Shown here one piece after another: positions 1-48,247 of a DNA stretch of 64,000 nt. How positions within the stretch are numbered: position 1 is the first letter of the stretch; each line of letters begins with the position of its first letter. This DNA comes from Candidatus Omnitrophota bacterium (GTDB lineage Bacteria > Omnitrophota > Omnitrophia > Omnitrophales > Aquincolibacteriaceae). A program made the position numbers and the translations under genes. The notes beneath the pieces were generated by a model. The model saw only the letters and a list, made by a program, of their open reading frames with translations, had not been told where the DNA came from and did not search any database. Location of the stretch: contig JAKLIQ010000001.1 in assembly GCA_022709525.1 (NCBI GenBank), forward strand, positions 78,709-142,708. The letters run 5' to 3'.

Positions 1-640
1 AAGCGGTCTCCACAAGGAGGCGGCCGCGATCGTGCGCGATGCCATGAAAAAACACGGCAAGATCATTTTTAACGGGAACAATTATTCCGAAGAGTGGGTC
101 GCGGAGGCCAAGAAGCGCGGTTTGCCCAACATCAAGACGGGCGTCGAGGCCTTGGCGTCCATGGCGACCCCGGAAGCCGTGAAGCTTTTCGAGAAATACA
201 AAGTGCTCTCCAAAGGAGAGCTGCACGCGCGTTATGAGATCTACCTCGAGGGTTACGTGAAACATGTCAATATCGAGGCCCGGGCGGCGGTCCAGATGGT
301 AAAGCGCCAGTACCTGCCCGCGGTGATCGCCTTTACCAAGCATCTTGCCAAGGCGATCGCGCAGCTTAAAACGGCCGGCGTTTCCGCCAAGGTCCAAAAG
401 CAGCTTTTGTCCAGCGTGACCGAGCTTTTGGAATCGGCCAATGACAAACTCGAAGTCCTCGAAAGCTCGATCGAAAAAGCGCACGCGGTCAAAGACCTCA
501 TCAAACGCGCCGAGGCGTTTCGCGACAAAGTCGTAGTGGCTGCGAACGATCTTCGCAAGGATATCGACGCTCTTGAAGGTTTGACCCCGGCGGATCTCTG
601 GCCGGTGCCGACTTACGCGGAAATGCTTTTTAAGCTCTAA
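1..640 (+). CDS. glnN: C-terminal portion of a type III glutamine synthetase (GlnN-like); the 5' end lies outside the window
   Basis: The ORF is open from the window edge to a stop at 638-640. The C-terminal region (NGNNYSEEW...RGLPNIKT...YEIYLEGYVKHVNIEA) resembles the GSIII C-terminal extension as recalled. It lies next to amtB-glnK. Confidence 0.55.
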   Translation, partial: SGLHKEAAAIVRDAMKKHGKIIFNGNNYSEEWVAEAKKRGLPNIKTGVEALASMATPEAVKLFEKYKVLSKGELHARYEIYLEGYVKHVNIEARAAVQMVKRQYLPAVIAFTKHLAKAIAQLKTAGVSAKVQKQLLSSVTELLESANDKLEVLESSIEKAHAVKDLIKRAEAFRDKVVVAANDLRKDIDALEGLTPADLWPVPTYAEMLFKL

Positions 641-14819: not shown

Positions 14820-16015
14820 AATATATCGTCGTAGTGCTTGCGGGCGCCGCGGATCATCCGACCGAAGAGCTCGGTGGCAAGACCCCTTTGGAAGCGGCCA
14901 AGGTCTCGAACTTGAATTTTTTTGCGAAGACCGGCAAGGTCGGGACCGCGAAGCTTGTTTCCGACCGCCTGCCGCCGTCGCCCGATGTGAGTCTCTTCAA
15001 TCTTTTGGGCTATGACGCCGGCAAGCTTTATACCGGCCGTGGCCCGCTTGAGGCGGCGGATAAGGAACTCACGCTTGACGATAAAGAGGTCGCGTTCTGC
15101 ATGAACTTTATCACCGAGGCGGCGGGCAACTTGGCCGACCCGACGGCCGGCAACATCAGCACCAAAGAAGCGAGAGCGCTCGTGAATTTTCTTAACAAGA
15201 AGGTCGCAAGCGATTTCGTCCGTTTCTTTTCCGGGTCCGGGCACCGGCACATCGCCGTGATCAAGGATGCGCACGGGTTCGAAGCCTTATCCGCCAAAAC
15301 CCAGGCGCCGGAAAGCGTGATCGGGGAGAAGATCGACGACATTCTGCCGAAAGGCCCCGGCGAGGAATTGATCCGCAAACTGATGTATGACGCCCGACTG
15401 CTTTTGCAGGACCATGAGATCAACCAGGTGCGCGTGGACCTCGGGGAAAATCCGGCCAACATGGTCTGGCTTTGGGGCCAAGGCAAAAAACCATCGCTTA
15501 AGCCGTTTCGCGAATGTTTTGATATTTCCGGCGGCGCCATGGTCGCCGCGCGCGAATACGCGAAAGGTCTGGGGCGGACGGCGGGCTTGACCGTCATGGA
15601 GGTCAAGGAAGAGGGCGAAGAGCCGGCGGCTTTTTATGACAAGATCTCCAAGGTCGCCATCGACGCCGCGAACGAAAAAGATTTTGTCTGCCTTTTCCTT
15701 CATACGCCGGAAGAAGCGGCGCGGGCCGGGGACGTGAAAGGAAAGATCTCGGCTCTCGAAGGGATCGATTTTTTTGTGTTGTCCAAACTCCGGAAATATC
15801 TCGAACAGTCGAAGGACGCGAGGCTTCTGGTGACGCCGGGGCATGCGACACTCTGGAAAATGAAAGAGACGGTCCGCGATAGCGCTCCGTTCGTCATCGC
15901 CGGCAAGAACATTATGGCGGATGAAGTGGAGCGTTTCTCAGAGATCGCGGCCAAGACTTCGGAATTGAAATTCAACAAAACCACGGAATTGATGCCCTTT
16001 TTTATTACTAAATAA
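14816..16015 (+). CDS. Cofactor-independent phosphoglycerate-mutase (archaeal iPGM/ApgM)-like protein; the proposed non-canonical homoserine kinase of thr operons
   Basis: iPGM-like sequence, overlapping the thrC stop by 4 nt. No thrB is present. Matches my recollection of the TIGR02535 proposed homoserine kinase context. Confidence 0.6.
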
Positions 16016-16017
16016 AG

Positions 16018-16142
16018 GGACTCGTTCCTCGCCTGGCTCTCATTAATTTTTTTGGAAGCCAGTGCAGCACCGTGGTGCGGGACTAGGGACTCGCAAAAAC
16101 AAGGGACGCAGACGAGTCCCGAGGAGCTAGTCCCGAGTCCCC
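16018..16142 (+). repeat. Copy A of a palindromic GGGACTCG...CGAGTCCC element (long form, about 125 nt)
   Basis: It starts 2 nt after the stop codon. It is about 80% identical to copy B at 18995-19120, including the internal hairpin cctggctctc...ggaagccagtgcag. Confidence 0.8.
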
Positions 16143-16200
16143 AACGTGCTTGTTTCTTTGAGATTCAAACATAATCAAATTATTTCTTAGGAGTTAAAAA

Positions 16201-17418
16201 ATGTCACTTATTGTTCAGAAATATGGCGGCTCTTCCGTCGCCAATGCGGAAAAGATCCTGCGGGTCGCTCAACGCGTCATTAAAACGAAACAGGCGGGAA
16301 ATAAGGTCGTGGTGGTCGTCTCCGCCATGGGCGATATGACTGACGACCTTATCACGCTCGCGGACCAAATCAATAGGGATCCCGAAGAGCGCGAAATGGA
16401 TATGCTTCTTTCGACCGGGGAGCAGGTTTCGATCGCGCTTCTCGCAATGGCGATCCACAAACTCGGGCATGAAGCAGTTTCATTTACCGGATCACAGGTT
16501 GGTATTATCACGGACACGTTCCATAGCAAAGCCCGTATTCAAAATATCAGTCCGGAACGCATCAAGAAAGCTTTAGCGGACGGAAAGATCGTGATCGTGG
16601 CCGGTTTCCAGGGGCAGACGCCTTCCGGCGAGATCACAACGCTCGGGCGCGGCGGTTCGGATCTGACGGCCGTGGCGCTCGCGGTGGCTTTGCGTGCGAA
16701 ACATTGCGAGATCTATACGGATGTGGACGGGATCTATACCGCGGACCCGCGTGTGATCCCCGAAGCCAGTAAAATGGATGTCGCGACCTACGACGAGATC
16801 CTGGAACTGGCGTCGCTCGGCGCAAAGGTGATGCATTCCCGGTCGATTGAGGTCGGTAAAAAATTCAACATGCCCATTTGGGTATGCAATTCCCATAAAG
16901 ACATTAAAGGAACTCTTATCACGAAGGAGAACAAGAAAATGGAAGAAGTCGTCGTTAGCGGTGTCGCCCTTGCAGAAGATGAAGCCAAGATCACCCTGTT
17001 CCGCGTGCCGGACCGTCCGGGCGTGGCGGCGAAGATCTTTCAAACGCTCGCCGACGCGAACGTGAACGTGGATATGATCATCCAGAACAAAACGCAGACG
17101 AACTCGACGGACGTGTCCTTTACGGTCTTCAAGAACGAACTGACCAAGGCCATGAAAGTCGTTAAAGCCAACGCCAAAAAACTTGGCGTCAAAGACGTTG
17201 TCTGTGACGAAAATATCGCCAAAGTCTCGATCGTCGGGATCGGCATGCGCTCGCATTCCGGCATCGCGTCCAAAATGTTCTCAACGCTCGCGAAAAATAA
17301 GATCAATATCGATATGATCTCCACTTCCGAGATCAAGATCTCTGTCGTGGTGGCCGGCGACAAGGGCAAGCTCGCCGCCCGCGCCATCCATCAGGCGTTC
17401 GGGCTCGGGAAAAAATAA
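16201..17418 (+). CDS. lysC: Aspartate kinase with C-terminal ACT domains
   Basis: [10 protein letters not shown]-terminal motif; overall aspartokinase-like. Confidence 0.9.
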
Positions 17419-17423
17419 TAAGC

Positions 17424-18989
17424 ATGAAAAGCAAAAGGATCCTCTTTTACGATACAACGCTTCGCGACGGCTCGCAGGCCGAGGGGATCAGCCTGTCCAG
17501 CCACGACAAGGTCTTGATCGCAAAAAGATTGGATCAGTTCGGGATCCACTACATCGAGGGCGGATGGCCGGGCTCCAACCCGAAAGACATGGAATTTTTC
17601 AAAATGATCAAGAAGGCCGGGGTCAGGCGGTCGAAGATCGCGGCATTCGGTTCCACGCGCCGCGCGCATACCAAAGTCAAAGAAGACCCGCAGGTGAAGG
17701 CTTTACTTGAGGCCGGCACCAAGGTTGTAACGGTTTTCGGAAAATCCTGGGATTTTCATGTGACGGAAGTTTTCAAGACCGCGCTTAAAGAAAACCTGCT
17801 CATGATCTACGAGACGGTCGCGTATCTTAAGGACCGGAAGATCGAAGTGATCTATGATGCGGAGCATTTCTTTGACGGCTTCAAGGCGAATCCCGAATAT
17901 GCGCTGAAAGCCTTGCAGCAGGCGGCCAAAGCGGGCGCGAATAATCTCACGCTTTGCGATACCAACGGCGGAACATTGCCCCACGAGGTGCGCCACGCCA
18001 TCCTCAAAGTGAAGCGTACGGTGAAAACACCGCTCGGGATCCACTGTCATAACGATTCCGATCTTGCGGTCGCGAACTCGATCCAGGCCGTAGGAGAAGG
18101 CTGCGTGCTTGTGCAGGGGACCGTCAACGGTTACGGCGAACGCTGCGGGAACGCGAATCTTATCAGTATTATCTCGGACCTACAGCTTAAGATGAAGATC
18201 CCGTGCTTTCCGCCAAAAAAGATGAAAGAACTGACCTCACTTTCACATTATGTCGCGGAGATCTGCAATATGCCGCTTGCCAACAACCAACCGTTCACGG
18301 GGCGGTCGGCTTTTGCGCATAAAGGCGGCGTTCATATTAACGCGATGGTCAAGAACGCCAAAACCTATGAACACGTCGAGCCAAAAGTGGTCGGCAATTA
18401 CCGCCGTTACCTTGTTTCCGAACTCGGCGGCAAGACCAACATCATGATCAAAGCCAAGGAGCTCGAACTGCATTTCCAGAAGGATTCGCCGGAATCCAAG
18501 AAGATCCTGACCGAGATCCAGCGCCTGGAACATGAGGGCTATCAATTCGAGGCGGCGGAAGCGAGTTTTGAACTTCTCGTCCAGCGGCTTCTTGGAAAAC
18601 TCAAGCCGTTCTTTAAAACGGAATCCGTTTCCGTGCGCACCGAAAGGATCGGCGGGGGCGAGCCGCGCTCGATCGCTGACGTGAAACTTTCGGTCGGAGG
18701 GATGGAGCACTTTGAGTCCGCGGAAGGGGACGGCCCGGTGAACGCGCTCGATTCGGCGCTCCGCAAAGCGCTCCAGAAGTCCTATCCCGTGATCCATGAG
18801 ATCCATCTGACCGACTATAAAGTGCGTGTCGTTAATTCCGAAGCCGGCACGGCCGCCAAAGTGCGCGTTTTCATTGAATTCCAGGATAAAGAAAAAACCT
18901 GGACCACGGTCGGCGTTCACGAGAACATCATCGAAGCCAGCTGGAAAGCCCTCGTCGAAGCGATCGAGTATAAACTGCATAAAGGATAA
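17424..18989 (+). CDS. cimA: Citramalate synthase / 2-isopropylmalate synthase family (LeuA type 2, CimA-like)
   Basis: TTLRDGSQAEG HMGL-like motif; roughly 520 aa with a C-terminal regulatory domain. Context with lysC/hom/thrC suggests a threonine-independent isoleucine route. Confidence 0.65.
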   Translation: MKSKRILFYDTTLRDGSQAEGISLSSHDKVLIAKRLDQFGIHYIEGGWPGSNPKDMEFFKMIKKAGVRRSKIAAFGSTRRAHTKVKEDPQVKALLEAGTKVVTVFGKSWDFHVTEVFKTALKENLLMIYETVAYLKDRKIEVIYDAEHFFDGFKANPEYALKALQQAAKAGANNLTLCDTNGGTLPHEVRHAILKVKRTVKTPLGIHCHNDSDLAVANSIQAVGEGCVLVQGTVNGYGERCGNANLISIISDLQLKMKIPCFPPKKMKELTSLSHYVAEICNMPLANNQPFTGRSAFAHKGGVHINAMVKNAKTYEHVEPKVVGNYRRYLVSELGGKTNIMIKAKELELHFQKDSPESKKILTEIQRLEHEGYQFEAAEASFELLVQRLLGKLKPFFKTESVSVRTERIGGGEPRSIADVKLSVGGMEHFESAEGDGPVNALDSALRKALQKSYPVIHEIHLTDYKVRVVNSEAGTAAKVRVFIEFQDKEKTWTTVGVHENIIEASWKALVEAIEYKLHKG

Positions 18990-18994
18990 AGCCG

Positions 18995-19120
18995 GGGACT
19001 CGGGATTCGTAGCTCGCCTGGCTCTCGTTAATTCTTATCGGAAGCCAGTGCAGTACTTTAGTGCGGGACTCGAAAAAACGAGGAACCAAAACGAGTCCCT
19101 AGGAACTAGTCCCCAGTCCC
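18995..19120 (+). repeat. Copy B of the GGGACTCG...CGAGTCCC element (long form)
   Basis: It starts 6 nt after the cimA stop. It is homologous to copy A over about 125 nt. Confidence 0.8.
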
Positions 19121-19129
19121 GTTTTCATT

Positions 19130-21988
19130 ATGGACCTAGACAAACAATATAATTCCAAAGAAGTCGAGACGAAATGGTATTCCCTATGGGAATCGAAGGG
19201 CTATTTCCGTCCGCAGAGCGACGAAAAACGGGGACTCCGGGCTCGGGACTCGTCCCTCGGAAAAGTTCCTCACGAGTCCCTAGGAACTAGTCCCGAGCGA
19301 CGTCCGTATGTGATCGTGATTCCGCCACCGAACGTGACGGGGATCCTGCACATGGGCCATGCGCTCAACAATTCCATTCAGGATATCCTTGTTCGCTGGA
19401 ACCGTATGAAGGGCCGGGACACGCTCTGGGTTCCGGGCGTTGACCACGCGGGCATCGCGACGCAGAACGTGGTCGAGAAAAAACTCGCCAAAGAAAAGAA
19501 AACGCGCTGGGATCTTGGCCGCGAAAAGTTTCTCAAAGAAGTCTGGAAATGGAAAGAAGAGCACGGTTCCACGATCACGCGCCAGCTGAGGCGGCTTGGC
19601 GCCTCCTGCGACTGGTCGCGAGAGCGTTTTACAATGGATGAGGGGCTCTCCAAGGCCGTGCGCGAGGCTTTTGTCACGCTTTATGAAAAGGGCCTGATCT
19701 ATCGCGGCAATTACATCATTAATTGGTGCCCACGCTGTGAGACCGCGCTTTCGGACGAAGAGGCGGCGCACAAGGACGTGCAAGGCGGCCTTTATCATAT
19801 CAAGTATCCCTGCCTGCCGGCCGGCAGGCTATCGTCGGAAGTCCGCGGACCGTATGAGAAAATGGGTGAGGATCATATTGTGGTCGCCACGACCCGGCCC
19901 GAGACCATGCTGGGTGATACCGCGGTCGCAGTCCATCCGGATGATCCGCGCTACAAGCACCTGATCGGTCAAAAGGTCATCCTGCCTTTAATGGAACGCG
20001 AGATCCCTGTGATCGCCGATGAACTTGTCGATCCCGAATTCGGAACCGGGATCGTCAAGGTCACGCCCGCGCATGACCCGAACGATTTCGCGATAGGGCA
20101 CCGCCACAAACTCGAACAGGTCAATGTTATGACGCCGGACGGCAAGATCAATGAAAACGGCGGCGCCTATAAGGGCATGGACCGCTTCGAAGCCCGCAAG
20201 AAGATCCTCCATGACCTCGAAGAGCGCGGGCTTTTTGTCCGTCGCGATTCGCATTTGCACGCGGTCGGGCATTGTTATCGTTGCGATACCGTGATCGAGC
20301 CTTATCTTTCCAAGCAATGGTTCGTCAAGATGCAGCCGCTGGCCGAGAAAGCGCTCAAAGCTCATGAACAGGGAAAGACCGTTTTCTATCCTGACCGCTG
20401 GACCAAGGTTTATACCAACTGGCTTCGCAATATCCGCGACTGGTGCATTTCCCGCCAAATTTGGTGGGGGCATCAGATTCCAGCCTGGCATTGTTCCCAA
20501 TGCCAGGCTGCGGGACTCGCATCTCGCACCTCGGGGCTCGACAAGCGAGAAATCCAAACGAGTCCCGAGTCCCGAGTCCCGAGCAACGATGGGATTATCG
20601 TTGCCCGCGAGAAACCCGGAAAATGTCCCCGCTGCAGCAGCAAAGACCTCGTTCAAGACCCCGATGTGCTCGATACATGGTTTTCCTCTTGGTTGTGGCC
20701 GTTCTCAACGCTTGGTTGGCCGGAAAAAACCGACGATGTGAAAAAGTTTTATCCGACGTCGGACCTGATCACGGCGCCGGAGATCATCTTTTTCTGGGTC
20801 GCGCGCATGATCATGGCGGGTCTGGAATTCATGGGAGAAGTTCCTTTCAGTCGCATTTATATTCACGGAACGGTCCGCGCGGCAACCGGTCTTAAAATGT
20901 CAAAATCGCTCGGCAACTCGATCGATCCGCTCGAAGTGATCGAAGAAATGGGTGCCGACGCGCTCCGTTACAGCATGATCATGCTCTCCTCGCAGGATGT
21001 TTTCCTCTCCCGGGAGAAGTTTGAAGTCGGCCGCAATTTTGCCAACAAAGTCTGGAACGCCTGCCGGTTTGTTTTGATGCAGATCGCGGATCTCAAAGAA
21101 GCTTCAGCGGATCCAAAACAATTCGAAAGATCAGCGTTATCCCTTCCAAGCCGCTGGATCCTTTCTCGACTGGAAGAAAAGTCCGCCGGGATCGAACGCC
21201 ATCTTGCGCAATTCGGCCTCGCCCAGGCCGCGACCGAGCTTTATCATTTCGTATGGGACGATTTTTGCGACTGGTATATCGAGCTCGCCAAACCGATGAT
21301 CCAATCCGAAGACCCTGCGGTAAAGCTCCAGACGCAAAAAGTCCTTTTCTTTGTCTGTGAGAGGATCCTCCGGCTTCTGCATCCTTTTGTGCCGTTCATC
21401 ACCGAAGAGATCTGGCAGAAATTCAAAGAAAGAGCCGTGGACGGGAAGACTTGGCCGGAAAGCATCATGCTCGCCGCATGGCCGCACGACGGGAAGAAGC
21501 AATTCCATGACGCGGCCGCCCAGAAAGCCGTCGGCTTTTTGCAGGATGCCGTGACCGGGATCCGGGACCTGCGCGTCCGGTTCCAGATCGCGCCGACCGA
21601 TAAATTGAAAGCGGTGGTCGTCTGCAAAGAAAAAGGGACCCAGGAGGTTTTCAAGGCCTTTGAACGCGAAGTGAAAACGCTCGGCCGGTTGGCGGAACTT
21701 CAGTGTGTCCGCGAATTCCAGAAAAAAGGCGCTATGGCGGCCAATTCGTTCGCCGCGTTCGATGTCTTCATTTCTCTCGAGGGGATCCTGGACCCCGAGG
21801 AAGAGAAAAAGCGGCTCCAGAAAAAGATCCGGGAGACCGAACAGTGGATCGAACAGATCCTTAAAAAAGTCGGGAATCCTTCTTTCGCCGAAAAGGCTCC
21901 GAAGGAGATCCTTGAGAAAGAGAAAGAAAAACTCGAAGATGCCAAAAAACTTCTCGTATCCTACAAGACCCAGCTCGCAAGTTTCTAG
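19130..21988 (+). CDS. valS: Valyl-tRNA synthetase
   Basis: HIGH motif (PPPNVTGILHMGHALN) and KMSKS motif (KMSKSLGN), plus a C-terminal coiled coil. It carries two in-frame repeat-derived inserts. Confidence 0.9.
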   Translation: MDLDKQYNSKEVETKWYSLWESKGYFRPQSDEKRGLRARDSSLGKVPHESLGTSPERRPYVIVIPPPNVTGILHMGHALNNSIQDILVRWNRMKGRDTLWVPGVDHAGIATQNVVEKKLAKEKKTRWDLGREKFLKEVWKWKEEHGSTITRQLRRLGASCDWSRERFTMDEGLSKAVREAFVTLYEKGLIYRGNYIINWCPRCETALSDEEAAHKDVQGGLYHIKYPCLPAGRLSSEVRGPYEKMGEDHIVVATTRPETMLGDTAVAVHPDDPRYKHLIGQKVILPLMEREIPVIADELVDPEFGTGIVKVTPAHDPNDFAIGHRHKLEQVNVMTPDGKINENGGAYKGMDRFEARKKILHDLEERGLFVRRDSHLHAVGHCYRCDTVIEPYLSKQWFVKMQPLAEKALKAHEQGKTVFYPDRWTKVYTNWLRNIRDWCISRQIWWGHQIPAWHCSQCQAAGLASRTSGLDKREIQTSPESRVPSNDGIIVAREKPGKCPRCSSKDLVQDPDVLDTWFSSWLWPFSTLGWPEKTDDVKKFYPTSDLITAPEIIFFWVARMIMAGLEFMGEVPFSRIYIHGTVRAATGLKMSKSLGNSIDPLEVIEEMGADALRYSMIMLSSQDVFLSREKFEVGRNFANKVWNACRFVLMQIADLKEASADPKQFERSALSLPSRWILSRLEEKSAGIERHLAQFGLAQAATELYHFVWDDFCDWYIELAKPMIQSEDPAVKLQTQKVLFFVCERILRLLHPFVPFITEEIWQKFKERAVDGKTWPESIMLAAWPHDGKKQFHDAAAQKAVGFLQDAVTGIRDLRVRFQIAPTDKLKAVVVCKEKGTQEVFKAFEREVKTLGRLAELQCVREFQKKGAMAANSFAAFDVFISLEGILDPEEEKKRLQKKIRETEQWIEQILKKVGNPSFAEKAPKEILEKEKEKLEDAKKLLVSYKTQLASF
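19231..19295 (+). repeat. Copy C of the element (short form), in-frame inside valS, encoding RGLRARDSSLGKVPHESLGTSPER
   Basis: gggactccgggctcgggactcg...cacgagtccctaggaactagtcccgag matches the termini of copy B. The GYF...IPPPN spacing is about 23 aa longer than in E. coli ValRS as recalled. Confidence 0.7.
20511..20584 (+). repeat. Copy D of the element (short form), in-frame inside valS, encoding AAGLASRTSGLDKREIQTSPESRVPSN
   Basis: cgggactcgcatctcgcacctcggggctcg...aaacgagtcccgagtcccgagtcccgag. Confidence 0.7.
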
Positions 21989-27253: not shown

Positions 27254-28981
<1,728 letters not shown>

Positions 28982-29227
28982 GATGACAGGCCTCCTTTCA
29001 GGCAGGGATCGAAAGCGCCAGCCCGGCGCTTTGATCGAGAAACGAATAATACACCCGCCGTCAAGTGGACGGAAGCCGTTCGCCCTTTCTGTTTTGCTAT
29101 CCAATGCCGAACCAGCCATTGCGCAAGCATAGCTAATGAGCCGTTCCGGGCATATTCCGGAGGCGGCTCGGGCATCTCAAAATCTTCGATGGTCAGATCT
29201 CTGGATTTATCAGCTCTATCCCGATCC

Positions 29228-30061
29228 TTATGTGCAGGATGGATCAGAGACAGCACCTCCCTTGTAGCGTTTATAGCGCTGTTTATAAAACTCTTCTTTC
29301 TCAAACCGGCGGAGTTCTGCTTCCGCCTTGTGGATTTCGTCGTACTCGTCAACGAAGTCCTCATCAAACTCAAGATAATTGTTCAAAACGAGTGTGCTGT
29401 TCTTTTTGTTGACGAAAGTTGTTTCTCCTTCGCGTCTGAGCAGTTCCTCCATCGTTGCGAAATAGAAACACTCCGGACAATGTTCAAGTTTCTTGAACCA
29501 CTCGATCATCGATTTTCTTTCCACGAGATAGAGAAAGGCGCTGATGCCCTCGTTTTTGACCCAGGTATCTATGAGCACCCGATCATAATACCGCTTACTC
29601 TTCAGCGTCCGTTCGATCTCGATCACAAAACTGTGTTTTCGGCCATCATCAGCCAGGCCATCCGGGACCTTTCTCCGTTCCGTCTTACTTTTCAACACGC
29701 GCTCAGATGTCCAGATGAGCCCCGGAGAACGCTCTAGGATAATACGCGCATCCGTGACCCAAACATCGTGCTCGTAGATTTTCAGGTCCACTCCATCCAG
29801 CGGTCGTAGTCCGTTCGACAGATCCAGGCTCCTCAGGTGCTTTACGCCTTTGGCGGTCGTGAGATAAAGCGTGTCATGACCGACCCTTGGCTTCACGGCT
29901 TTCAAATAACCCTGTCGCATCAGGAGATTCACTCTTCTTGCCGGGACCTTGTACATGCTCAGGCTCTCGGGGAAGAACTTCTTGGCGATATGCCTCAGGA
30001 GCAGAAACTTCTGCTCAAGGCACATCTTCAGGATCTCCGAATCTCTTTCTGTAATGATCAT
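29228..30061 (-). CDS. Hypothetical protein with N-terminal winged-helix-like region (possibly replication-relaxation family)
   Basis: N-terminal helix-turn-helix-like region ILKMCLEQKFLLLRHIAKKF...LMRQGYLK and an acidic C-terminus. It lies in the recombinase island. The family assignment is a guess. Confidence 0.3.
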   Translation of the reverse strand: MIITERDSEILKMCLEQKFLLLRHIAKKFFPESLSMYKVPARRVNLLMRQGYLKAVKPRVGHDTLYLTTAKGVKHLRSLDLSNGLRPLDGVDLKIYEHDVWVTDARIILERSPGLIWTSERVLKSKTERRKVPDGLADDGRKHSFVIEIERTLKSKRYYDRVLIDTWVKNEGISAFLYLVERKSMIEWFKKLEHCPECFYFATMEELLRREGETTFVNKKNSTLVLNNYLEFDEDFVDEYDEIHKAEAELRRFEKEEFYKQRYKRYKGGAVSDPSCT

Positions 30062-30235
30062 CCGCTACTTGTTCCTTATCTGATTTCGTGAGAGACATAT
30101 TAAAAATTGATCTGACGGTGGAGCGATCTGCGTCGTGTCATTTTTGTGATCTTCAAATCTCCGGTACTTCTTGGGCTTTAGCGCCGTGTTAGCAACCAGG
30201 CTTTAGACTGGTCTTGGTTTTTATTTATAATTTCA

Positions 30236-30587
30236 AATACCCCTCATGGGACATTGAGTTAAGGAGGGGGCGTTCAACGTTTGCGCACATTTTTATACTT
30301 GAAATAAATTTTCACGAACATCGATCTGATCCATTTAACCTGTCCGAAAGATCCCAAATTCTCCGGAAACCGTTCCGCAAGAAAATCATCAATTTCCCAA
30401 ACAAGCCTCTCATGGGAGGTCGAGTTACGACATGGTCGTTCACACCAAACGAACATTTCTAAGCTTGAAATAAATTTTTCAGCGATTTTGTCCGCCTTTC
30501 TTTTACCTTGATAACCCCTCATGGGAGGTCAATTTACGACATGGGTGTGACGCTTTTGGGAAGGTTTTTAAGCTTGAAATAAAGTTT
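30236..30587 (+). repeat. Three imperfect direct repeats of 75-80 nt (30236-30311, 30405-30479, 30514-30587), iteron-like
   Basis: Each unit has the form cctcatgggaggtcRaKttacgacatgg...cttgaaataaaKttt. Peptides encoded inside are not conserved between copies, so a DNA or RNA function is more likely. Confidence 0.6.
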
Positions 30588-31027
30588 ATCGCATAGCAAC
30601 TGCCACTCGGATAAAAGCTCCGGAGGGATTAAGGTCTTGATAGGTAAGAACCCAAAGAAGGAATCTTAAAGGTCGTCTTTTGTTTATGCCCGGTCCACCA
30701 GAGGACGGATCTGTCTAACGCGATGTGGCAGATAAGAACCGGGGAAAGTTAAGAGCATGGGGACATTCAAAACGATATATTTCTTAAAAACAGAAGAAAG
30801 GATTATCCCTATCCAGCCCAGATTCATTTCAACAGCTTGCCCGAAGCCCGTCACAATGCAGCCGACCACTCCATCTCGCTCCAACAGATTATGAGAGGGA
30901 GTGGTCGGGTGCACGCAACAAGGGCGAAGGGCAAGCGCTGATTGAACTTAAGTAGGGCTGGACTGGTGGAATCCATTCCCTCACTTCATTCCACCGACCT
31001 GACCCGATCGAAATCGGTCAAAAATGT

Positions 31028-31072
31028 GAATGGTATACTCGACTTTACAAATGGTATATCGAATGGTATACT
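31028..31072 (+). promoter_or_regulatory. Three tandem (G/A)AATGGTATA(C/T) boxes upstream of fic
   Basis: gaatggtatac, aaatggtatatc and gaatggtatact lie 40-85 nt upstream of the fic ATG. Three similar boxes lie at 32138-32181. Confidence 0.5.
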
Positions 31073-31113
31073 GATGTTGAAGCTAGACCGTTAACCGAAA
31101 CAGAGGTGCAACC

Positions 31114-32151
31114 ATGAATTCCTTCAAGAATGATAATCTCGAAATGCCTTTAAGCTCGGTTTGGCTGCTGAGCGGGATCTCGGAGTACAAAGGCAAGCAG
31201 GAACTTTACACAAAGCAGGCACCGCAGGTCCTTAAAACCCTTATTGAAATGGCGCTAATCGAAAGCGCGGAATCTTCCAACCGCATCGAAGGCGTCACAG
31301 TTGACCGGGAACGTCTTAAACCGCTCGTTATCGGTCATAGCAAGCCCCGGGACCGCTCTGAAGAGGAAGTGGCCGGATACCGCAAGGCCCTCGACCTGAT
31401 TCATAAAAAATACGACACCTTGCAGATCACTCCGGATCTTATCAAGGAACTGCATCGTTTATGCCGGGGTGAATCATGGGATGCCGGGAAGTGGAAGGAG
31501 AAGGATAACGACATTATCAAAAAATACCCCGATGGCCGCGTGGAAGTGATCTATAAGCCCGTTAGCGCGGCGAAAACACCGGAGGCCATGGAGCAACTGT
31601 GCCTTAGCTACAGACATAGCATCGATCAGCTGAGATACCCTTCGCTTTACGCCATCGCCTGCCTTGTTCTTGATTTCCTCTGCGTCCATCCTTTCCGGGA
31701 CGGGAACGGCAGGGTTTCCAGGCTTCTGACATTACTGGCGCTTTATCAACACGGGTTTATGGTGGGAAAATATATCAGCATCGAGCGCATTGTGGAGCAG
31801 TCCAAGGAAACGTATTACGAGACGCTCAACAAAAGCTCACAGCAGTGGCATGAGGCCAAACATGATGTCCTTCCGTGGTTTAATTATTTCCTGGGGACCA
31901 TTACCGCTGCCTACAAGGAATTCGAAGAACGCGCCAGCCATGCAAGCCCGGAACGGGGCGCCAAGACCGGCATTGTCGAGGCCGCGGTTGATCGGCAGCT
32001 TGGAGAATTCAGTATTTCCAATATTGAGCAAGAGTGTCCGAATGTCAGCCGGGTCATGATCAAAAAAGTTCTCAGCCAGATGAGCAACGCCAAAAAGATC
32101 AAATGCCTCGGCAAGGGCAAGTCAGCCAAGTGGTTGCGAATGGTATCCTAA
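31114..32151 (+). CDS. fic: Fic family protein (class II, with an internal inhibitory SxxxEG helix and a C-terminal winged-helix)
   Basis: Fic motif HPFRDGNGRVSR; inhibitory motif SAESSNRIEGV near the N-terminus. Confidence 0.9.
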   Translation: MNSFKNDNLEMPLSSVWLLSGISEYKGKQELYTKQAPQVLKTLIEMALIESAESSNRIEGVTVDRERLKPLVIGHSKPRDRSEEEVAGYRKALDLIHKKYDTLQITPDLIKELHRLCRGESWDAGKWKEKDNDIIKKYPDGRVEVIYKPVSAAKTPEAMEQLCLSYRHSIDQLRYPSLYAIACLVLDFLCVHPFRDGNGRVSRLLTLLALYQHGFMVGKYISIERIVEQSKETYYETLNKSSQQWHEAKHDVLPWFNYFLGTITAAYKEFEERASHASPERGAKTGIVEAAVDRQLGEFSISNIEQECPNVSRVMIKKVLSQMSNAKKIKCLGKGKSAKWLRMVS

Positions 32152-32181
32152 GTCTCGCGATGGTATATCAAATGGGATATT
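32138..32181 (+). promoter_or_regulatory. Second set of three ATGGTATA-like boxes, overlapping the fic stop and preceding nuc
   Basis: gaatggtatcc, gatggtatatc and aaatgggatatt lie immediately upstream of the ATG at 32187. Confidence 0.45.
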
Positions 32182-32186
32182 AACGA

Positions 32187-32723
32187 GTGCACATGCGAAA
32201 AAACATCTGCTGTATAGTTGTTCTGATCATTATTTTTCTCTCCATCCCCGCATCGTTGCAAGCCAAACAAACGGCCACCGATGAGCAGGTTTATTTTTCC
32301 CCTAAAGGTGGATGCACAGAGGCCATTGTCAAGAATCTGGATCAGGCCGAAAGATATGTGCTTGTTCAGGCATATTCCTTCACGTCGAAGCCCATTGCCG
32401 AAGCTCTCGTCGACGCGCACAAGCGCGGCGTGAAAGTAAAAGTGCTTTTGGACAAGAGTCAGCGGAATGGCAAAGGGAGCAAGCTCTCCCTATTGGCTGA
32501 GGCCGGGATACCTGTCAGCATTGACACCAAACACTCGATTGCTCACAATAAGGTTATGATTATCGACGGCGTTACTGTAATCACGGGTTCTTTCAATTTT
32601 ACCAGCGCCGCCGAAGACAAAAACGCCGAAAATCTTTTAGTCGTTAGAGATAAGGTTATCGCGAGGAAATACCGCAATAACTGGAACAAACATCAGAAGC
32701 ATTCCGAGCTGTATCAGATATAA
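32187..32723 (+). CDS. nuc: Secreted phospholipase-D superfamily endonuclease (Nuc-like)
   Basis: Signal peptide; HxK(x4)D motif IAHNKVMIIDG; size and organization like plasmid Nuc. Confidence 0.8.
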   Translation: MHMRKNICCIVVLIIIFLSIPASLQAKQTATDEQVYFSPKGGCTEAIVKNLDQAERYVLVQAYSFTSKPIAEALVDAHKRGVKVKVLLDKSQRNGKGSKLSLLAEAGIPVSIDTKHSIAHNKVMIIDGVTVITGSFNFTSAAEDKNAENLLVVRDKVIARKYRNNWNKHQKHSELYQI

Positions 32724-32801
32724 AATATGCGGCGAGATAAAAACCGATGTATTCCTTGAATGACAGAGATAGAGGAATTGAAAATGAGGAGGAAATGCCA
32801 A

Positions 32802-33530
32802 ATGAAAAAAGCGATTTTAGCGTTGTGTGGGATAATGTTATTAATGCTCGAAACATTTACGCCCTGCTGTGTTGCCGAGGAAAGCAAAAGATATACGGAT
32901 GAATTTTTATTCGTCAATTCTTATCTTGAGTGCTTAGAAAATTATATATCTATTCAAACATATGATGGTCTTATGGTAACAGGAAAGGCCAATTATTCTT
33001 CCGAAGAAGTTGTCAACAGCGCTTTTATGAAACAATTAAAAAAAGAACAGGAATTCATTTCGGAAATGATTCGTGCAATGGGAAAATATTCCGATTCTCC
33101 GGTAGATAGCATCAAGAACGCCTCCAATACAATTTTGGAAAAATATCAGAAAATGCAAGCTCTGAACACCAAAGCGCAAGATGCATATTTTCATGTGAAG
33201 ACGGGGCAATTTAAGGCGGGCATTTTGACCGGCAGCGAACTTTTCGATGAAAAGCAAGCTATTGAAAGCGGCATGTTTTTTGAGGAAGAAAATTTAATGA
33301 GACAAATTTTGTTTCCCAAAGGTAGCTCTGTAATGAAAATAACTGCCGAAGAGAAAAAACAGCTTCAAGAAAAAATAAGAAGCTTAAAACAGATCAGCCT
33401 TGCCAAGGAGCATTCTATTGGCGAAGGAGAGTATTTAGTGGCCGAGGGAGGACAGTTTCTCAAATTTTTTTTACAGGCTTTCCAACGATTTATAGATATT
33501 AATTTTCCTTGTTTGAAAACAGTAGCGTGA
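32802..33530 (+). CDS. Secreted hypothetical protein, low GC
   Basis: Signal peptide MKKAILALCGIMLLMLETFTPCCVA. RBS gaggagg lies 9 nt upstream. The alternative start is 32784. Confidence 0.4.
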   Translation: MKKAILALCGIMLLMLETFTPCCVAEESKRYTDEFLFVNSYLECLENYISIQTYDGLMVTGKANYSSEEVVNSAFMKQLKKEQEFISEMIRAMGKYSDSPVDSIKNASNTILEKYQKMQALNTKAQDAYFHVKTGQFKAGILTGSELFDEKQAIESGMFFEEENLMRQILFPKGSSVMKITAEEKKQLQEKIRSLKQISLAKEHSIGEGEYLVAEGGQFLKFFLQAFQRFIDINFPCLKTVA

Positions 33531-33627
33531 AATAGCTGTGGTGTTTTAGTTCCGCTTATGCATCGCTTATTTTAAAACGAAACTCCAGAATTTTGAGCGA
33601 GGTAGGCCCAAAAGGAGATGCTATAAA

Positions 33628-34311
33628 ATGACTATGGAAGCGCACTGTTTCCAAAACGTTCAATGGATTAAATTTATCTTGCCGATCTTTGCGACATTTC
33701 TTGGCGCTTGGCTCGCTTTTTTCTTGCAAAATCGTAGGGATGCTAAAAAACAGGAAAAAACCAACTATGGAGTACTTTTAAAAACACAGGCGTTATTTTA
33801 TGAATATTTTGAAGCTATTTATTCGGTCAAAAAAGATTTTTTAGACCAGCATGCAAAAGACGCAGAGAGATCAACAAGGGTTAAGCATATTAGTCTTTGC
33901 CAAAAGTTCTCTGAGCTTGATTTCGAAGGCATATCCTTTATCCTTACAACAAAAAATCCGGACTTGTTTGGTGATATTGTATGCACCTATAGAAAGTGCG
34001 TTTCGGCTATAGAAGCCATTAATGAGCGCAATAAGCAATACGGAAAATACAGCGGAGGGATTGCCAAAAGTATCGATTTGGGAAGTGGCAAATCTCAGGT
34101 AGATTTAATATTTCTTAGAGATTTTACAGACATTATGTATAGGGAAACGGATCAGGTGCTACAACGCATTAAACAAATCGACGGTGAATTACAGCAATTC
34201 ATAAAAGAAAAATTTAAAGGGAAACATGCCCTGAAAGTTACTTTTGTCGAGACTGCGACGCAATGCGCCAAAGGAAATGCAGACGGAGGCGGTCATGAAA
34301 CCGTCGCTTAA
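33628..34311 (+). CDS. Membrane-anchored hypothetical protein (one N-terminal TM helix)
   Basis: RBS aaggag; TM segment FILPIFATFLGAWLAFFL; no recognizable domain. Confidence 0.4.
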   Translation: MTMEAHCFQNVQWIKFILPIFATFLGAWLAFFLQNRRDAKKQEKTNYGVLLKTQALFYEYFEAIYSVKKDFLDQHAKDAERSTRVKHISLCQKFSELDFEGISFILTTKNPDLFGDIVCTYRKCVSAIEAINERNKQYGKYSGGIAKSIDLGSGKSQVDLIFLRDFTDIMYRETDQVLQRIKQIDGELQQFIKEKFKGKHALKVTFVETATQCAKGNADGGGHETVA

Positions 34312-35161
34312 AAATAAGATATTAAACTATATCGCTATGGGGTTTATTTTTTCCCCATGTTTATTGCCCCCTTTTCTTTGGATTAGATTGCTTGCGGTTG
34401 ATATCGATGTTAAGTTGAAAATAATGTGCCTTGCCTTTTTCAGCGCCGTCGTTCCTCTTATGATTGTCATTCTCGGTTTTGCCTGGGTTTGTTTTTTTGC
34501 AGTTTGCCTGTTCTTTAAAAATGTTTTCGACGAAACATTTCGTAATAAGCATGATTCATATCGAGATAATGATAAATGGCTCAGTGAAACCTTCAGTGAT
34601 GTTCATAAGCTTTTTAATAAGTGGGATAAATCAGAGAGGTGGAAAAAAACCAACGCAACGCTTCTGTGTGTCTTTTTTTTATCGGGAGCAGGAATTTCTT
34701 GGATTGATTTCGACCATAGAATTAAAGTGAAAACCGATAATCTTTCAAACATTGTTTCCATGAACATCATTGGGGATATCGATTTGCCAGTTTCTAAGCA
34801 AGGCCTTGTAAAACAGCGTGGTCTCCCAAAATCTGTTGATGTCCGATACCGGGGCGATGGGAAGAAATACAAGTTTGAAACATTGAGTTATGACTGGGCG
34901 GCCGGGCAAATGGAGGTTGTTTTCGTCAATGACAACTATGCGGATGGAATTGTTCGATATAAGCCGACGGATTTAAGCGTAAAAGTTTTGTTGCGTGATG
35001 TGTCGCACGTAAAGCAAAAGCCTTTGAAGTCTTATACCATTAGCGTCGTGAATACTAACGGCAAAACTTTATTAATTCGTGTCCAAAAAAATCAAAAAAT
35101 AAGTTCGATCACATATTTTGGTTCTTCCGCAAAGAAAGGGGCGATAAGACTGCTCCGATAA
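34295..35161 (+). CDS. Polytopic membrane protein with a C-terminal beta-rich soluble domain, hypothetical
   Basis: It overlaps the upstream ORF by 17 nt. GGAGG lies 5 nt before the ATG. There are 4-5 predicted TM helices. Confidence 0.4.
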   Translation: MKPSLKNKILNYIAMGFIFSPCLLPPFLWIRLLAVDIDVKLKIMCLAFFSAVVPLMIVILGFAWVCFFAVCLFFKNVFDETFRNKHDSYRDNDKWLSETFSDVHKLFNKWDKSERWKKTNATLLCVFFLSGAGISWIDFDHRIKVKTDNLSNIVSMNIIGDIDLPVSKQGLVKQRGLPKSVDVRYRGDGKKYKFETLSYDWAAGQMEVVFVNDNYADGIVRYKPTDLSVKVLLRDVSHVKQKPLKSYTISVVNTNGKTLLIRVQKNQKISSITYFGSSAKKGAIRLLR

Positions 35162-35214
35162 GGGATCATTTTCGATATAACTATCAAAGAAGTTGTTTTT
35201 ATCTGGAGCAAGTT

Positions 35215-35691: not shown

Positions 35692-35712
35692 TTAATCGAG
35701 ATGGTTAGGTCC

Positions 35713-35950: not shown

Positions 35951-35962
35951 TACCAATTGAGA

Positions 35963-36000
35963 AACCCGCCAGGGATTTATTCCTTGGCGGGTTTTTCTTT
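35963..36000 (+). terminator. Rho-independent terminator
   Basis: aaacccgccagg-gatttattc-cttggcgggttt followed by tttcttt. Confidence 0.6.
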
Positions 36001-46496: not shown

Positions 46497-46503
46497 TTAA
46501 ATC

Positions 46504-46575
46504 GGGACTCGGGGTTCGCCCCTCGGGACTCGAACAAAATGTGACGAGCCCCAAGTCTCGAGGAACGAGCCTCGG
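46504..46575 (+). repeat. Copy E of the GGGACTCG...CGAG(T/C)CCC element (short form)
   Basis: gggactcggggttcgcccctcgggactcg...gacgagccccaagtctcgaggaacgagcctcgg. It starts 8 nt after the grpE stop. Confidence 0.6.
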
Positions 46576-48135: not shown

Positions 48136-48200
48136 CGGGACTCGTATCTCGGGACTCGTCACTCGTGACGGTCTAAACGAGTCCCTGGTCCCGAGTCCCG
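48136..48200 (+). repeat. Copy F of the GGGACTCG...CGAGTCCC element (short form)
   Basis: gggactcgtatctcgggactcgtcactcgtgacggtctaaacgagtccctggtcccgagtcccg. It lies about 16 nt after the thioesterase stop. Confidence 0.65.
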
Positions 48201-48247
48201 AATTTGGTATACTGTGCATCCAGCAGGCCTTTAAAAAGAAGGATCCG

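What the first reader, a model, noticed from the sequence alone, without database searches (positions are those of the whole stretch)
19231..20584. Two copies of the palindromic element inserted in-frame inside valS, adding peptide segments to valyl-tRNA synthetase
Short-form copies at 19231-19295 and 20511-20584 lie inside the valS ORF without breaking the frame. They encode RGLRARDSSLGKVPHESLGTSPER, between the GYF motif and the IPPPN/HIGH region, and AAGLASRTSGLDKREIQTSPESRVPSN, just before the conserved DVLDTWFSS region. The encoded peptides are low-complexity and rich in S, G, R, P and E. The first insert lengthens the GYF-to-IPPPN spacing by about 23 aa compared with E. coli ValRS as I recall it. 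In-frame proliferation of a palindromic element inside essential genes is the hallmark of Rickettsia palindromic elements and is otherwise rare.
Basis: partly seen in the sequence, partly recalled or inferred. Interest (0 to 1): 0.8.

Follow-up and report, generated by a model that had tools for sequence, protein, structure and literature searches.

The report
Palindromic repeats read through inside valS
Two copies of a small palindromic repeat that is otherwise intergenic sit in frame inside the essential valyl-tRNA synthetase gene of an uncultivated Omnitrophota bacterium, adding two probably floppy loops, and related bacteria carry different repeats at the same two spots.

Summary
valS (19130-21988, +, 952 aa) contains two copies of a 64-75-nt imperfect palindrome, at 19229-19297 and 20511-20583. 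A profile built only from 25 intergenic copies on other contigs finds them at E=8e-11 and 1e-15. It finds just four other places in the window, all intergenic.

Compared with 110-120 Omnitrophota ValRS orthologues, both segments are lineage-specific. Site 1 adds 19 aa between the GYF strand and the IPPPN/HIGH strand. Site 2 adds 23 aa inside the CxxC...CxxC knuckle. AlphaFold gives pLDDT below 50 only over the two inserts (aa 34-56, 466-484) and the KMSKS loop; the rest matches T. thermophilus ValRS.

- The element is a lattice of 7-nt units: GGGACTC on the left arm and GAGTCCC on the right.
- The same two ValRS loops are insertion hot spots across the phylum and carry several unrelated-looking inserts; every one read at DNA level was palindromic.
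- The same family also sits in frame in a nadE gene on another contig.

Best reading: a REP/RPE-like selfish repeat, tolerated and translated only in permissive hydrophilic loops. How it spreads is unknown. It is not a member of the RPE or GTAG/CGTC REP families. Novelty: new variant of a known kind.

The parts
19130..21988 (+). valS, valyl-tRNA synthetase, 952 aa. One uninterrupted frame through both elements; HIGH (HMGH) and KMSKS motifs present.
   Evidence: ORF list. Pfam tRNA-synt_1, Anticodon_1 and Val_tRNA-synt_C on the identical protein P0001. E=3e-229 to T. thermophilus ValRS 1gax. AF2 model TM 0.76/0.83 to 1gax.
19229..19297 (+). In-frame element copy 1 (site 1). Encodes about R34-R57, between the N-terminal GYF strand and the IPPPN/HIGH strand. 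Net +19 aa.
   Evidence: nhmmer E=7.9e-11 with a profile of foreign intergenic copies. Inverted repeat I4/I5. Hairpin -31.9 kcal/mol, which is weak (z -1.84; 9 of 200 shuffles fold as well). Lag-7 self-identity 0.44. pLDDT below 50 at aa 34-56. Same family at the same position in L124 and L129.
20511..20583 (+). In-frame element copy 2 (site 2). Encodes L463-S485 inside the CxxC...CxxC knuckle. Net +23 aa (69 nt).
   Evidence: nhmmer E=1.3e-15. Hairpin -39.4 kcal/mol, z -3.8. Lag-7 self-identity 0.62. pLDDT below 50 at aa 466-484. Orthologous copy of the same length in L005/P0002. Empty site CQAAG|NDGIIV in P0026 and P0034, with near-identical empty sites in P0025 and P0018.
18992..19123 (+). 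Intergenic long-form copy filling the cimA-valS spacer. It is a short form plus a nested 47-nt hairpin module at 19017-19063.
   Evidence: (E=1e-15). The orthologous spacer is only 12-75 nt, with no GGGACTC-family hit, in L124, L125 and L126, so this is a lineage-specific insertion.
16014..16141 (+). Intergenic long-form copy upstream of lysC, with the nested module at 16032-16079.
   Evidence: (E=2e-15). L124 has a short form in this spacer in the opposite orientation. The spacer is only about 30 nt in L126 and L127.
46502..46575 (+). Intergenic short-form copy, degenerate, directly upstream of a dnaJ-like ORF (named from the start of its translation only).
   Evidence: E=2.6e-10.
48136..48203 (+). 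Intergenic short-form copy.
   Evidence: I3; E=3.7e-11.

Best explanation
**What it is.** The window comes from a Candidatus Omnitrophota genome. That genome carries a family of small (about 50-80 nt) dispersed imperfect palindromes. Each is built from 7-nt units: GGGACTC and variants (GNNNCTC) on the left arm, an A-rich loop, and the complementary units (GAGNNNC, mostly GAGTCCC) on the right arm.

**Where the copies are.** Most copies fill short spacers between genes. Two copies lie inside the essential gene valS.

**Why they persist (inferred).**
- Their inserted lengths keep the frame, and the frame in use has no stop codon.
- They sit with the A-rich loop on the sense strand, so they encode hydrophilic peptides rich in S, G, R, P and E.
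- They fall in two surface loops that tolerate extra length: the linker before the first Rossmann strand, and the loop of the zinc knuckle.
- I infer that they are simply transcribed and translated, giving a functional ValRS with two extra disordered loops of 19 and 23 residues.

**Why the same two loops recur (inferred).** In related Omnitrophota these two loops carry other palindromic repeats. I take this to reflect repeated insertion followed by purifying selection, which leaves only insertions at permissive sites.

**Shown versus inferred.**
- Shown: family membership of both copies, frame maintenance, lineage specificity, presence/absence differences at orthologous positions, the heptamer architecture, and predicted disorder.
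- Inferred: translation of the inserts, neutrality, the selection filter, and mobility by an unknown agent acting in trans.
For: **Family membership**
- A profile built from foreign intergenic copies finds both valS copies (E=1e-15 and 8e-11) and only four other sites in the window.
- There is a 21/21 identity with the neighbouring intergenic copy.

**Frame and lineage specificity**
- One 952-codon frame runs through both copies.
- Empty sites exist in close relatives.
- The orthologous copy at site 2 in L005 has the same length and about 88% identity by my own count, which points to an old insertion that has been kept.
- Site 1 holds the same family in L124 and L129, and a right-arm-only remnant in L005.

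**Structure**
- AF2 mean pLDDT is 83. Stretches below 50 occur only at aa 34-56, aa 466-484 and the KMSKS loop.
- The core matches ValRS structure 1gax.

**Mobility**
- Elements are present, absent or oppositely oriented in orthologous spacers of syntenic genomes.
- In the long forms a second small module is nested inside the element.

**Generality**
- The same family is in frame in a nadE loop on L044, adding 18 aa relative to structure 5kha.

**Selection filter**
- Open frames of the A-rich orientation encode hydrophilic peptides (Kyte-Doolittle -1.26), against -0.22 for the other orientation.
- All intragenic copies are in the A-rich orientation.

**Heptamer lattice**
- Lag-7 self-identity is 0.48 against 0.2-0.3 at other lags. 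The four other repeats measured (three from orthologue valS site 2, one from the L129 spacer) give 0.42-0.77.

**Not an artefact**
- The sequence is identical in three assemblies.
Against: - There is no expression evidence. Translation of the inserts is inferred only from frame maintenance.
- No transposase, target-site duplication or parent element was identified, so mobility rests on presence/absence comparisons alone.
- A simple permissive-site filter does not obviously explain the concentration in valS. Among eight syntenic genes in 7-8 genomes, nearly all insertions of 8 aa or more are in valS, one is in uvrB, and none are in hom, thrC, apgM, lysC, cimA or nadC.
- The right arm (GAGTCCC x3) of the site-2 copy is identical in two lineages whose ValRS proteins are only 84-85% identical. 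This could indicate constraint or gene conversion rather than neutrality.
- Only three independent intragenic events support the orientation argument.
Confidence: 0.8

Rival explanations
1. The inserts are retained because they do something. One possibility is that the hairpins in valS mRNA (-32 and -39 kcal/mol, the first about 100 nt after the start codon) tune translation, mRNA stability or processing. Another is that the added disordered loops give ValRS a lineage-specific interaction. Under either reading, valS is a preferred host rather than merely a tolerant one.
For: - Insertions are strongly concentrated in valS compared with seven neighbouring conserved genes.
- Site 2 is at least 12 aa longer than the modal spacer in 55 of 119 orthologues, and site 1 is at least 9 aa longer in 27 of 113.
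- The site-2 copy has been kept at the same length, with a perfectly conserved right arm, across lineages whose ValRS proteins are 84-85% identical.
- The site-2 hairpin and the intergenic copies fold better than shuffled sequence (z -3 to -4.3).
Against: - Insert sequences differ completely between close relatives, and empty sites are common. No single peptide or RNA sequence is therefore required.
- The site-1 hairpin is not clearly better than shuffled sequence (z -1.84).
- Both inserts are predicted to be disordered.
- ValRS is by far the largest and most loop-rich of the genes compared, which alone favours tolerance.
Confidence: 0.12
2. The segments did not arrive by insertion of a mobile element. 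Instead they arose in place, by slippage-driven expansion of heptanucleotide tandem repeats and inverted duplication at fragile sites. Their similarity to intergenic copies would then come from gene conversion between heptamer arrays.
For: - The 7-nt lattice.
- A pure four-unit GAGTCCC tract with no left arm at site 1 of L005, and a tract of about three GTTCCCC units at site 1 of L127.
- A 21-nt exact identity between the site-1 copy and the copy 181 nt upstream, which fits local conversion.
- No target-site duplication or transposase was found.
Against: - The whole element, meaning left arm, characteristic loop AAAAACGAGGAACC-like and right arm, is shared with copies on many unlinked contigs. 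In-place growth does not predict this.
- Orthologous spacers differ by all-or-none presence and by orientation.
- The half-elements are equally well explained as decay products.
Confidence: 0.06
3. The segments are not part of the mature protein. They would be skipped by translational bypassing or removed from the transcript. Alternatively, the N-terminal 60 codons are not used and translation starts after element 1, as the JGI gene call has it.
For: - Gene callers start valS just downstream of element 1 in two genomes: P0001 at V61, immediately after the element, and P0051 at M75 in the query's numbering.
- Strong hairpins lie within the coding sequence.
Against: - In every orthologue examined the frame stays open through the inserts, and the conserved N-terminal segment (KWY..WE..GYF) stays in frame upstream. 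Skipped or excised segments would not need this.
- Insert lengths are always multiples of three.
- The region upstream of site 1 is conserved across all 110 aligned sequences (Y7, Y17, W20, E21 and F26 are invariant).
Confidence: 0.02

Closest known systems
Rickettsia palindromic elements (RPE; Ogata et al. 2000 and 2002, as summarised in PMC10969869 and PMC3733652)
   Same: A dispersed palindromic repeat found both between genes and in frame inside essential housekeeping genes. It adds a peptide segment at positions compatible with the fold, and the host gene stays intact.
   Different: - Size: about 50-80 nt here, against about 100-150 nt for RPEs.
- Built from 7-nt units, with no shared sequence and in a different phylum.
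- Nearly half of the RPE copies first described in R. conorii lie in ORFs. Here intragenic copies are a small minority and are concentrated in valS.
- The encoded peptide is not conserved as a family signature, because the copies are read in different frames.
REP/REPIN elements and intragenic REPs (GTAG- or CGTC-tagged; PMC3733652)
   Same: - Short palindromes, mostly between co-directional or convergent genes.
- Occasionally lie entirely within ORFs.
- There is a precedent for different REPs at about the same site of one gene (recB of two Xanthomonas species).
   Different: - No GTAG or CGTC terminal tag; the ends are GGGACTCG and CGAGTCCC.
- Longer, multi-unit arms with 7-nt periodicity.
- No RAYT transposase was identified, and only 64 kb was examined.
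Heptanucleotide tandem repeats: cyanobacterial STRR, and the G-rich GGGAATC (Xanthomonas) and GGGGA(C/T)T (Nostoc) repeats (PMC4692102)
   Same: - A 7-nt repeat unit with a GGG core; GGGACTC differs from GGGAATC at one position.
- Dispersed, and mostly within about 50 nt of ORF ends.
- From my own recollection, not checked here: STRR units also occur inside the RNase P RNA gene of heterocystous cyanobacteria, and small dispersed repeats are found embedded in heptamer arrays in Nostoc (Elhai et al. 2008).
   Different: - Those repeats are direct tandem arrays, discussed as G-quadruplex formers. Here two arrays of opposite polarity flank a specific loop and form a hairpin.
- The four other Omnitrophota repeats measured use non-G-rich units (AGACCAC, CCGTAC, GGATGAA, GGGGAAC).
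Bacterial MITEs that create in-frame fusions (Correia, ERIC, BOX, QMITE1; reviewed in PMC10969869)
   Same: A small non-autonomous repeat with inverted arms that can sit within ORFs.
   Different: No target-site duplication or parent insertion sequence is recognisable, and the size is at the low end for MITEs.

Membership tests
Valyl-tRNA synthetase (host gene) | Class I synthetase fold with HIGH and KMSKS motifs, an editing domain, an anticodon-binding domain and a C-terminal coiled coil | tested here: met
   Pfam PF00133, PF08264 and PF10458 on the identical protein. E=3e-229 to 1gax. AF2 model TM 0.76/0.83 to 1gax. HMGH and KMSKS are present in the translation.
Rickettsia palindromic elements (RPE) | Dispersed palindromic repeat with copies inserted in frame in protein-coding genes that remain intact | tested here: met
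Rickettsia palindromic elements (RPE) | Insertion at positions compatible with the protein fold (surface loops) | tested here: met
   pLDDT is below 50 only over the inserts and the KMSKS loop, with a confident core. This is a prediction; no solvent-exposure calculation was possible.
Rickettsia palindromic elements (RPE) | Sequence homology to RPE-1..10, length about 100-150 bp, a conserved encoded peptide, and the genus Rickettsia | tested here: not met
   Length is 50-80 nt. The organism is Omnitrophota. The copies are read in different frames, giving different peptides. No RPE sequence library was available for direct comparison.
REP / REPIN (RAYT-mobilised) | Conserved GTAG or CGTC tetranucleotide at one end of the palindrome | tested here: not met
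   The alignment of 25 copies begins GGGACTCG and ends CGAGTCCC, with no conserved flanking tag. The criterion is taken from PMC3733652.
REP / REPIN (RAYT-mobilised) | An associated IS200/IS605-like tyrosine transposase (RAYT) in the genome | not tested
   Only 64 kb of the genome was available and its proteins were not all scanned. The Pfam labels around valS show a serine recombinase but no Y1 transposase.
REP / REPIN (RAYT-mobilised) | Predominantly extragenic, in short spacers between genes | tested here: met
   Four of six window copies, and nearly all copies on other contigs, lie within a few to about 75 nt of ORF ends.
MITE | Terminal inverted repeats flanked by a target-site duplication, plus a parent insertion sequence with the same ends | tested here: inconclusive
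   Inverted arms are present. Comparing filled and empty valS sites gives ambiguous junctions: at site 2 the empty site GCGGGA|AGAGAT overlaps the element's first bases, and at site 1 the linker was partly replaced. No parent element was sought.
Heptanucleotide tandem repeats (STRR-like) | 7-nt unit periodicity | tested here: met
   Lag-7 self-identity is 0.48 and lag-14 is 0.41, against 0.18-0.33 at other lags. Site 1 gives 0.44 and site 2 gives 0.62.
Heptanucleotide tandem repeats (STRR-like) | A simple head-to-tail direct array of one unit | tested here: not met
   The copies are two arrays of opposite polarity around a conserved loop. Pure direct tracts occur only as apparent remnants, at L005 site 1 and L127 site 1.

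The most novel reading that the evidence does not exclude
Omnitrophota may harbour an undescribed class of small mobile repeats defined by architecture rather than by sequence: two opposed arrays of 7-nt units around a loop. Several lineage-specific unit sequences exist (GGGACTC, AGACCAC, CCGTAC, GGATGAA, GGGGAAC). On this reading the class is spread by a dedicated, still unknown machinery that recognises or generates the 7-nt lattice. It would also preferentially colonise, or be selectively kept in, particular loops of valS, where the copies could act as structured mRNA elements or as evolvable disordered loops.
Probability: 0.2. Interest if true: 0.75.

Novelty: new variant of a known kind. 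Interest (0 to 1): 0.55.

Why it matters
- Outside Rickettsia, there are few clear cases of selfish palindromic DNA being read through as protein in essential genes. This is a well-supported example in an uncultivated, small-celled phylum, with many natural replicates: dozens of orthologues with empty, filled or differently filled sites.
- That makes it a natural experiment on how proteins gain loops and on which positions of a class I synthetase tolerate insertions.
- The 7-nt lattice shared by the repeats I measured hints at a common generating mechanism that is not explained by the known REP/RAYT or MITE models.
- There is also a practical point. Gene callers truncate valS downstream of the site-1 repeat (immediately after it in P0001), so annotations of these genomes understate the phenomenon.

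Tried and rejected
- **Rfam.** No match at gathering thresholds over the whole window. At E<=1 over 15900-20700 the only hit was a sub-threshold S15-leader match. The elements and the nested long-form module are not a described RNA family.
- **tRNA scan.** None found.
- **Terminator and promoter scans.** Counts around the elements are no higher than in shuffled sequence. A terminator role is not supported by this crude test, although several intergenic copies are followed by T-rich tracts.
- **Metagenome pattern scan (CGGGACTCG N15-45 ACGAGTCCC).** It supplied about 25 true copies but no genome-wide census.
- **GTDB scan with the canonical loop pattern.** It found only one Omnitrophota MAG, so the taxonomic range is still poorly defined.
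- **Missing DNA.** P0034 (both sites empty) and P0056 had no stored DNA.
- **Orientation relative to flanking genes.** By my tally of the table, roughly 22 copies run with their flanking genes and 10 against. My ORF calling was crude, so I treat this as inconclusive.
- **Clustering of insert peptides.** Single-linkage clustering over-merged the low-complexity sequences, so I give no exact family count.
- **Literature.** Searches for Omnitrophota with palindromic, heptamer or repeat terms found nothing relevant.
- **Rejected readings.** An assembly artefact is excluded by three assemblies with identical sequence. A pseudogene is excluded by the intact motifs and the 84-85% identity to relatives.
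Full report
**1. What is in the sequence**

The window holds one long ORF at 19130-21988 (+), 952 aa. It is a valyl-tRNA synthetase:
- The identical protein in public data carries the tRNA-synt_1, Anticodon_1 and Val_tRNA-synt_C Pfam domains.
- It matches T. thermophilus ValRS (1gax) at E=3e-229.
- The nearest named relatives are all Candidatus Omnitrophota MAGs.

At 19229-19297 the sequence is GGGGACTCCGGGCTCGGGACTCGTCCCTCGGAAAAGTTCCTCACGAGTCCCTAGGAACTAGTCCCGAGCG. At 20511-20583 it is CGGGACTCGCATCTCGCACCTCGGGGCTCGACAAGCGAGAAATCCAAACGAGTCCCGAGTCCCGAGTCCCGAG. Both are imperfect inverted repeats (I4-I6). As RNA they fold at -31.9 and -39.4 kcal/mol. The second is clearly better than shuffled sequence (z -3.8); the first is only weakly so (z -1.84).

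**2. Is the similarity to intergenic copies real?**

Yes.
- GGGACTCG occurs 20 times against 1.8 expected, and the hits cluster in a few places.
- A 21-mer from the right arm of the site-1 copy is identical to the copy in the cimA-valS spacer 181 nt upstream.
- As an unbiased test, I collected 25 intergenic copies from other metagenome contigs, aligned them, built an nhmmer profile and searched the window. It found exactly six places:

| Place | Context | E-value |
|---|---|---|
| 16073-16141 | intergenic | 2e-15 |
| 19064-19123 | intergenic | 1e-15 |
| 46502-46574 | intergenic | 2.6e-10 |
| 48137-48203 | intergenic | 3.7e-11 |
| 19229-19297 | valS site 1 | 7.9e-11 |
| 20511-20583 | valS site 2 | 1.3e-15 |

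The identical valS with both elements is found in three separate assemblies. This is therefore not a chimera or an assembly error.

**3. Are they insertions?**

I aligned the protein with 120 Omnitrophota orthologues of 60-100% identity.

Site 1:
- The stretch between the GYFRP motif and YVIVIPPPN is 12-13 aa in 69 of 113 sequences, for example QSDHGKKTDGKP.
- Here it is 31 aa, a net gain of 19.

Site 2:
- The stretch from the first CxxC to D-DVLDTWFSS is 31 aa in the modal class. The closest insert-free relatives, which keep the same flanking residues (CKKCQAAG|NDGIIVSR...), have 32.
- Here 23 extra residues, L463-S485, sit exactly between AAG and NDG. That is 69 nt.

The AlphaFold2 model built on the 110-sequence alignment has mean pLDDT 83. 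Stretches below 50 occur only at aa 34-56, aa 466-484 and the KMSKS loop. The rest superposes on 1gax with TM 0.76/0.83. Both inserts therefore behave as disordered loops added to an otherwise normal enzyme. Site 2 lies between the two cysteine pairs of the knuckle (C455, C458 ... C499, C502).

**4. Anatomy of the element**

Aligning the six window copies shows two things.
- The two 'long forms' (16014-16141 and 18992-19123) are short forms with a 47-48-nt extra hairpin module nested inside the left arm. That module occurs only in these two copies.
- The 25-copy alignment gives the consensus [GGGACTC]n-G-TAAAAACGAGGAACCCAAAAC-[GAGTCCC / TAGTCCC / GAGNNNC]n.

The arms are arrays of 7-nt units. 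Self-identity is 0.48 at lag 7 and 0.41 at lag 14, against 0.18-0.33 at other lags. The valS copies give 0.44 and 0.62 at lag 7. No Rfam family matches.

**5. Relatives: the same two loops are hot spots**

Site 1 is at least 9 aa longer than the mode in 27 of 113 orthologues. Site 2 is at least 12 aa longer in 55 of 119. The inserts fall into several unrelated-looking peptide types. I fetched DNA for seven syntenic loci:

| Locus | Site 1 | Site 2 |
|---|---|---|
| L124 | same GGGACTC family, same position | empty |
| L129 | same GGGACTC family, same position | GGGGAAC/GTTCCCC family by peptide similarity; that family is confirmed at DNA level in its cimA-valS spacer |
| L005 (P0002, 84-85% identical ValRS) | four GAGTCCC units only, an apparent remnant | orthologous GGGACTC copy, same length, about 88% identical by my own count |
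| L125 | empty | different palindrome of AGACCAC / CAGTCTC units |
| L126 | empty | TACGGNG / CCGTAC units |
| L127 | about three GTTCCCC units | GGATGAA / CTTCATC units |
| L128 | a two-hairpin element of another kind | empty |

The four non-GGGACTC repeats that I measured all show a lag-7 peak of 0.42-0.77. Less frequent insertion sites exist near aa 232-245, 530, 663 and 770-790.

Across eight syntenic genes in 7-8 genomes, insertions of 8 aa or more are almost confined to valS. There is one in uvrB of L125, and none in hom, thrC, apgM, lysC, cimA or nadC.

**6. Evidence for mobility and generality**

- The cimA-valS spacer is 140 nt here and is filled by a long form. It is 12-75 nt, with no GGGACTC-family hit, in L124, L125 and L126, and it holds a different family in L129.
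- The spacer upstream of lysC holds a long form here and a short form in the opposite orientation in L124. It is only about 30 nt in L126 and L127.
- A further in-frame copy of the same family lies inside a glutamine-dependent NAD+ synthetase gene on L044. It encodes AGTRGSGLGTRKNEEPNRGTSPEEQVPS in a loop that is 18 aa shorter in structure 5kha.
- Most copies on other contigs are intergenic and lie very close to ORF ends.

**7. Why these copies survive**

- About half of all reading frames through intergenic copies are stop-free in either orientation, and 12 of 25 copies have lengths divisible by three. A frame-preserving insertion is therefore not improbable.
- Frames read with the A-rich loop on the sense strand encode markedly hydrophilic peptides (mean Kyte-Doolittle -1.26). 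The opposite orientation gives -0.22.
- All intragenic copies are in the A-rich orientation, with hydropathy of -1.0 to -1.7.
- This fits selection for loop-compatible peptides. Only three events are independent, so the inference is weak.

**8. Mechanism**

The best-supported account (confidence about 0.8) is a REP/RPE-like selfish repeat that is transcribed and translated where it is tolerated.
- Shown: family membership, frame maintenance, lineage specificity, presence/absence polymorphism, heptamer architecture and predicted disorder.
- Inferred: translation, near-neutrality, the selection filter, and mobilisation in trans by an unidentified enzyme.

The rivals are as follows.
- A functional role at the mRNA or protein level (0.12). 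The valS concentration and the conserved right arm favour it. The complete turnover of insert sequence among relatives counts against it.
- Origin in place by heptamer slippage and conversion (0.06). The half-elements favour it. The shared loop and the all-or-none spacer differences count against it.
- Bypass, excision or a downstream start (0.02). It is contradicted by universal frame maintenance and by the conserved in-frame N-terminal segment.

**9. Comparison with known systems**

- It works like Rickettsia palindromic elements (PMC10969869, PMC3733652). It is not a member of that family by size, sequence, lineage or peptide conservation.
- It resembles REPs in location, and intragenic REPs are documented in several species, including same-site REPs in recB (PMC3733652). 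It lacks the GTAG/CGTC tag, and no RAYT was identified.
- Its 7-nt unit recalls cyanobacterial STRR and the G-rich GGGAATC / GGGGA(C/T)T repeats (PMC4692102). Those are direct arrays, not opposed arrays around a loop.
- I found no paper describing such repeats in Omnitrophota.

**10. Verdict**

I rate it a new variant of a known kind, with interest about 0.55. The unexplained points are the 7-nt lattice shared by the measured repeats, the strong preference for two ValRS loops, and the mobilising agent.

Noticed in passing
window 16032-16079 and 19017-19063: The two long-form elements are short forms with a 47-48-nt extra hairpin module (CCTGGCTCTC..GGAAGCCAGTGCAG..) nested inside the left arm. 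The module occurs only in these two copies in the window, both directly upstream of a gene start (lysC, valS). It matches no Rfam family.
   Followed up: partly
window 19130-19310; L129 2779-3000: Public gene calls truncate valS downstream of the site-1 element although the frame is open from the conserved N-terminus. P0001 starts at V61, immediately after the element. P0051 starts further downstream, in the HIGH motif. Annotation pipelines therefore hide this insertion.
   Followed up: yes
window 19812-19829: A perfect 18-nt palindrome, GCCTGCCGGCCGGCAGGC, lies inside valS at a third length-variable site (aa 228-245). L126 appears to have a related palindrome in its valS. This may be a third, smaller insertion.
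   Followed up: partly
window 27254-36000: A serine recombinase ORF (27254-29119, minus strand) is followed by three direct repeats of about 30 nt plus 29 nt at 30240-30587 (spacing 166 and 109 nt), then a Fic-domain ORF (31114-32151) and a low-GC block (0.40 against about 0.53) at 32-36 kb. This looks like an integrated mobile element.
   Followed up: no
window 37998-42662: A 1554-aa ORF contains a run of diverged repeats at 39903-40822, mostly 219 nt apart (one 222-nt step), with an outlying copy at 39162. It is probably a repeat-rich surface protein.
   Followed up: no
ValRS orthologues P0017 and P0020: Two close relatives (83-88% identical) lack the CxxC...CxxC knuckle entirely. In its place they have the E. 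coli/Bacillus-type linker (YDAQENIYVARTEQEAKEKAKAKHGKEV). This suggests that the module at site 2 has been swapped by recombination.
   Followed up: no
L044 2963-3045: The same GGGACTC family lies in frame inside a glutamine-dependent NAD+ synthetase gene on another contig. It lengthens a loop by 18 aa relative to PDB 5kha.
   Followed up: yes
L125 uvrB, about aa 217; L125 valS, about aa 757; L129 valS, about aa 228 and 779-810: Further lineage-specific inserts, most with hairpin-forming DNA, occur in uvrB and at other ValRS positions in relatives. One example is CAATCCGACCTCCGAGGTCGGAGTGGTCCGACCTCGGAGGTCGGATTG, at -47.6 kcal/mol.
   Followed up: partly
L031, L071, L103, L110, L116, L118 (GC 0.67-0.72): High-GC contigs of unknown origin carry a different palindromic repeat that shares the GGGACTCG ends (CGGGACTCGTGAAGCG...CGCTTCACGAGTCCCG). 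The end motif is therefore not confined to Omnitrophota.
   Followed up: no
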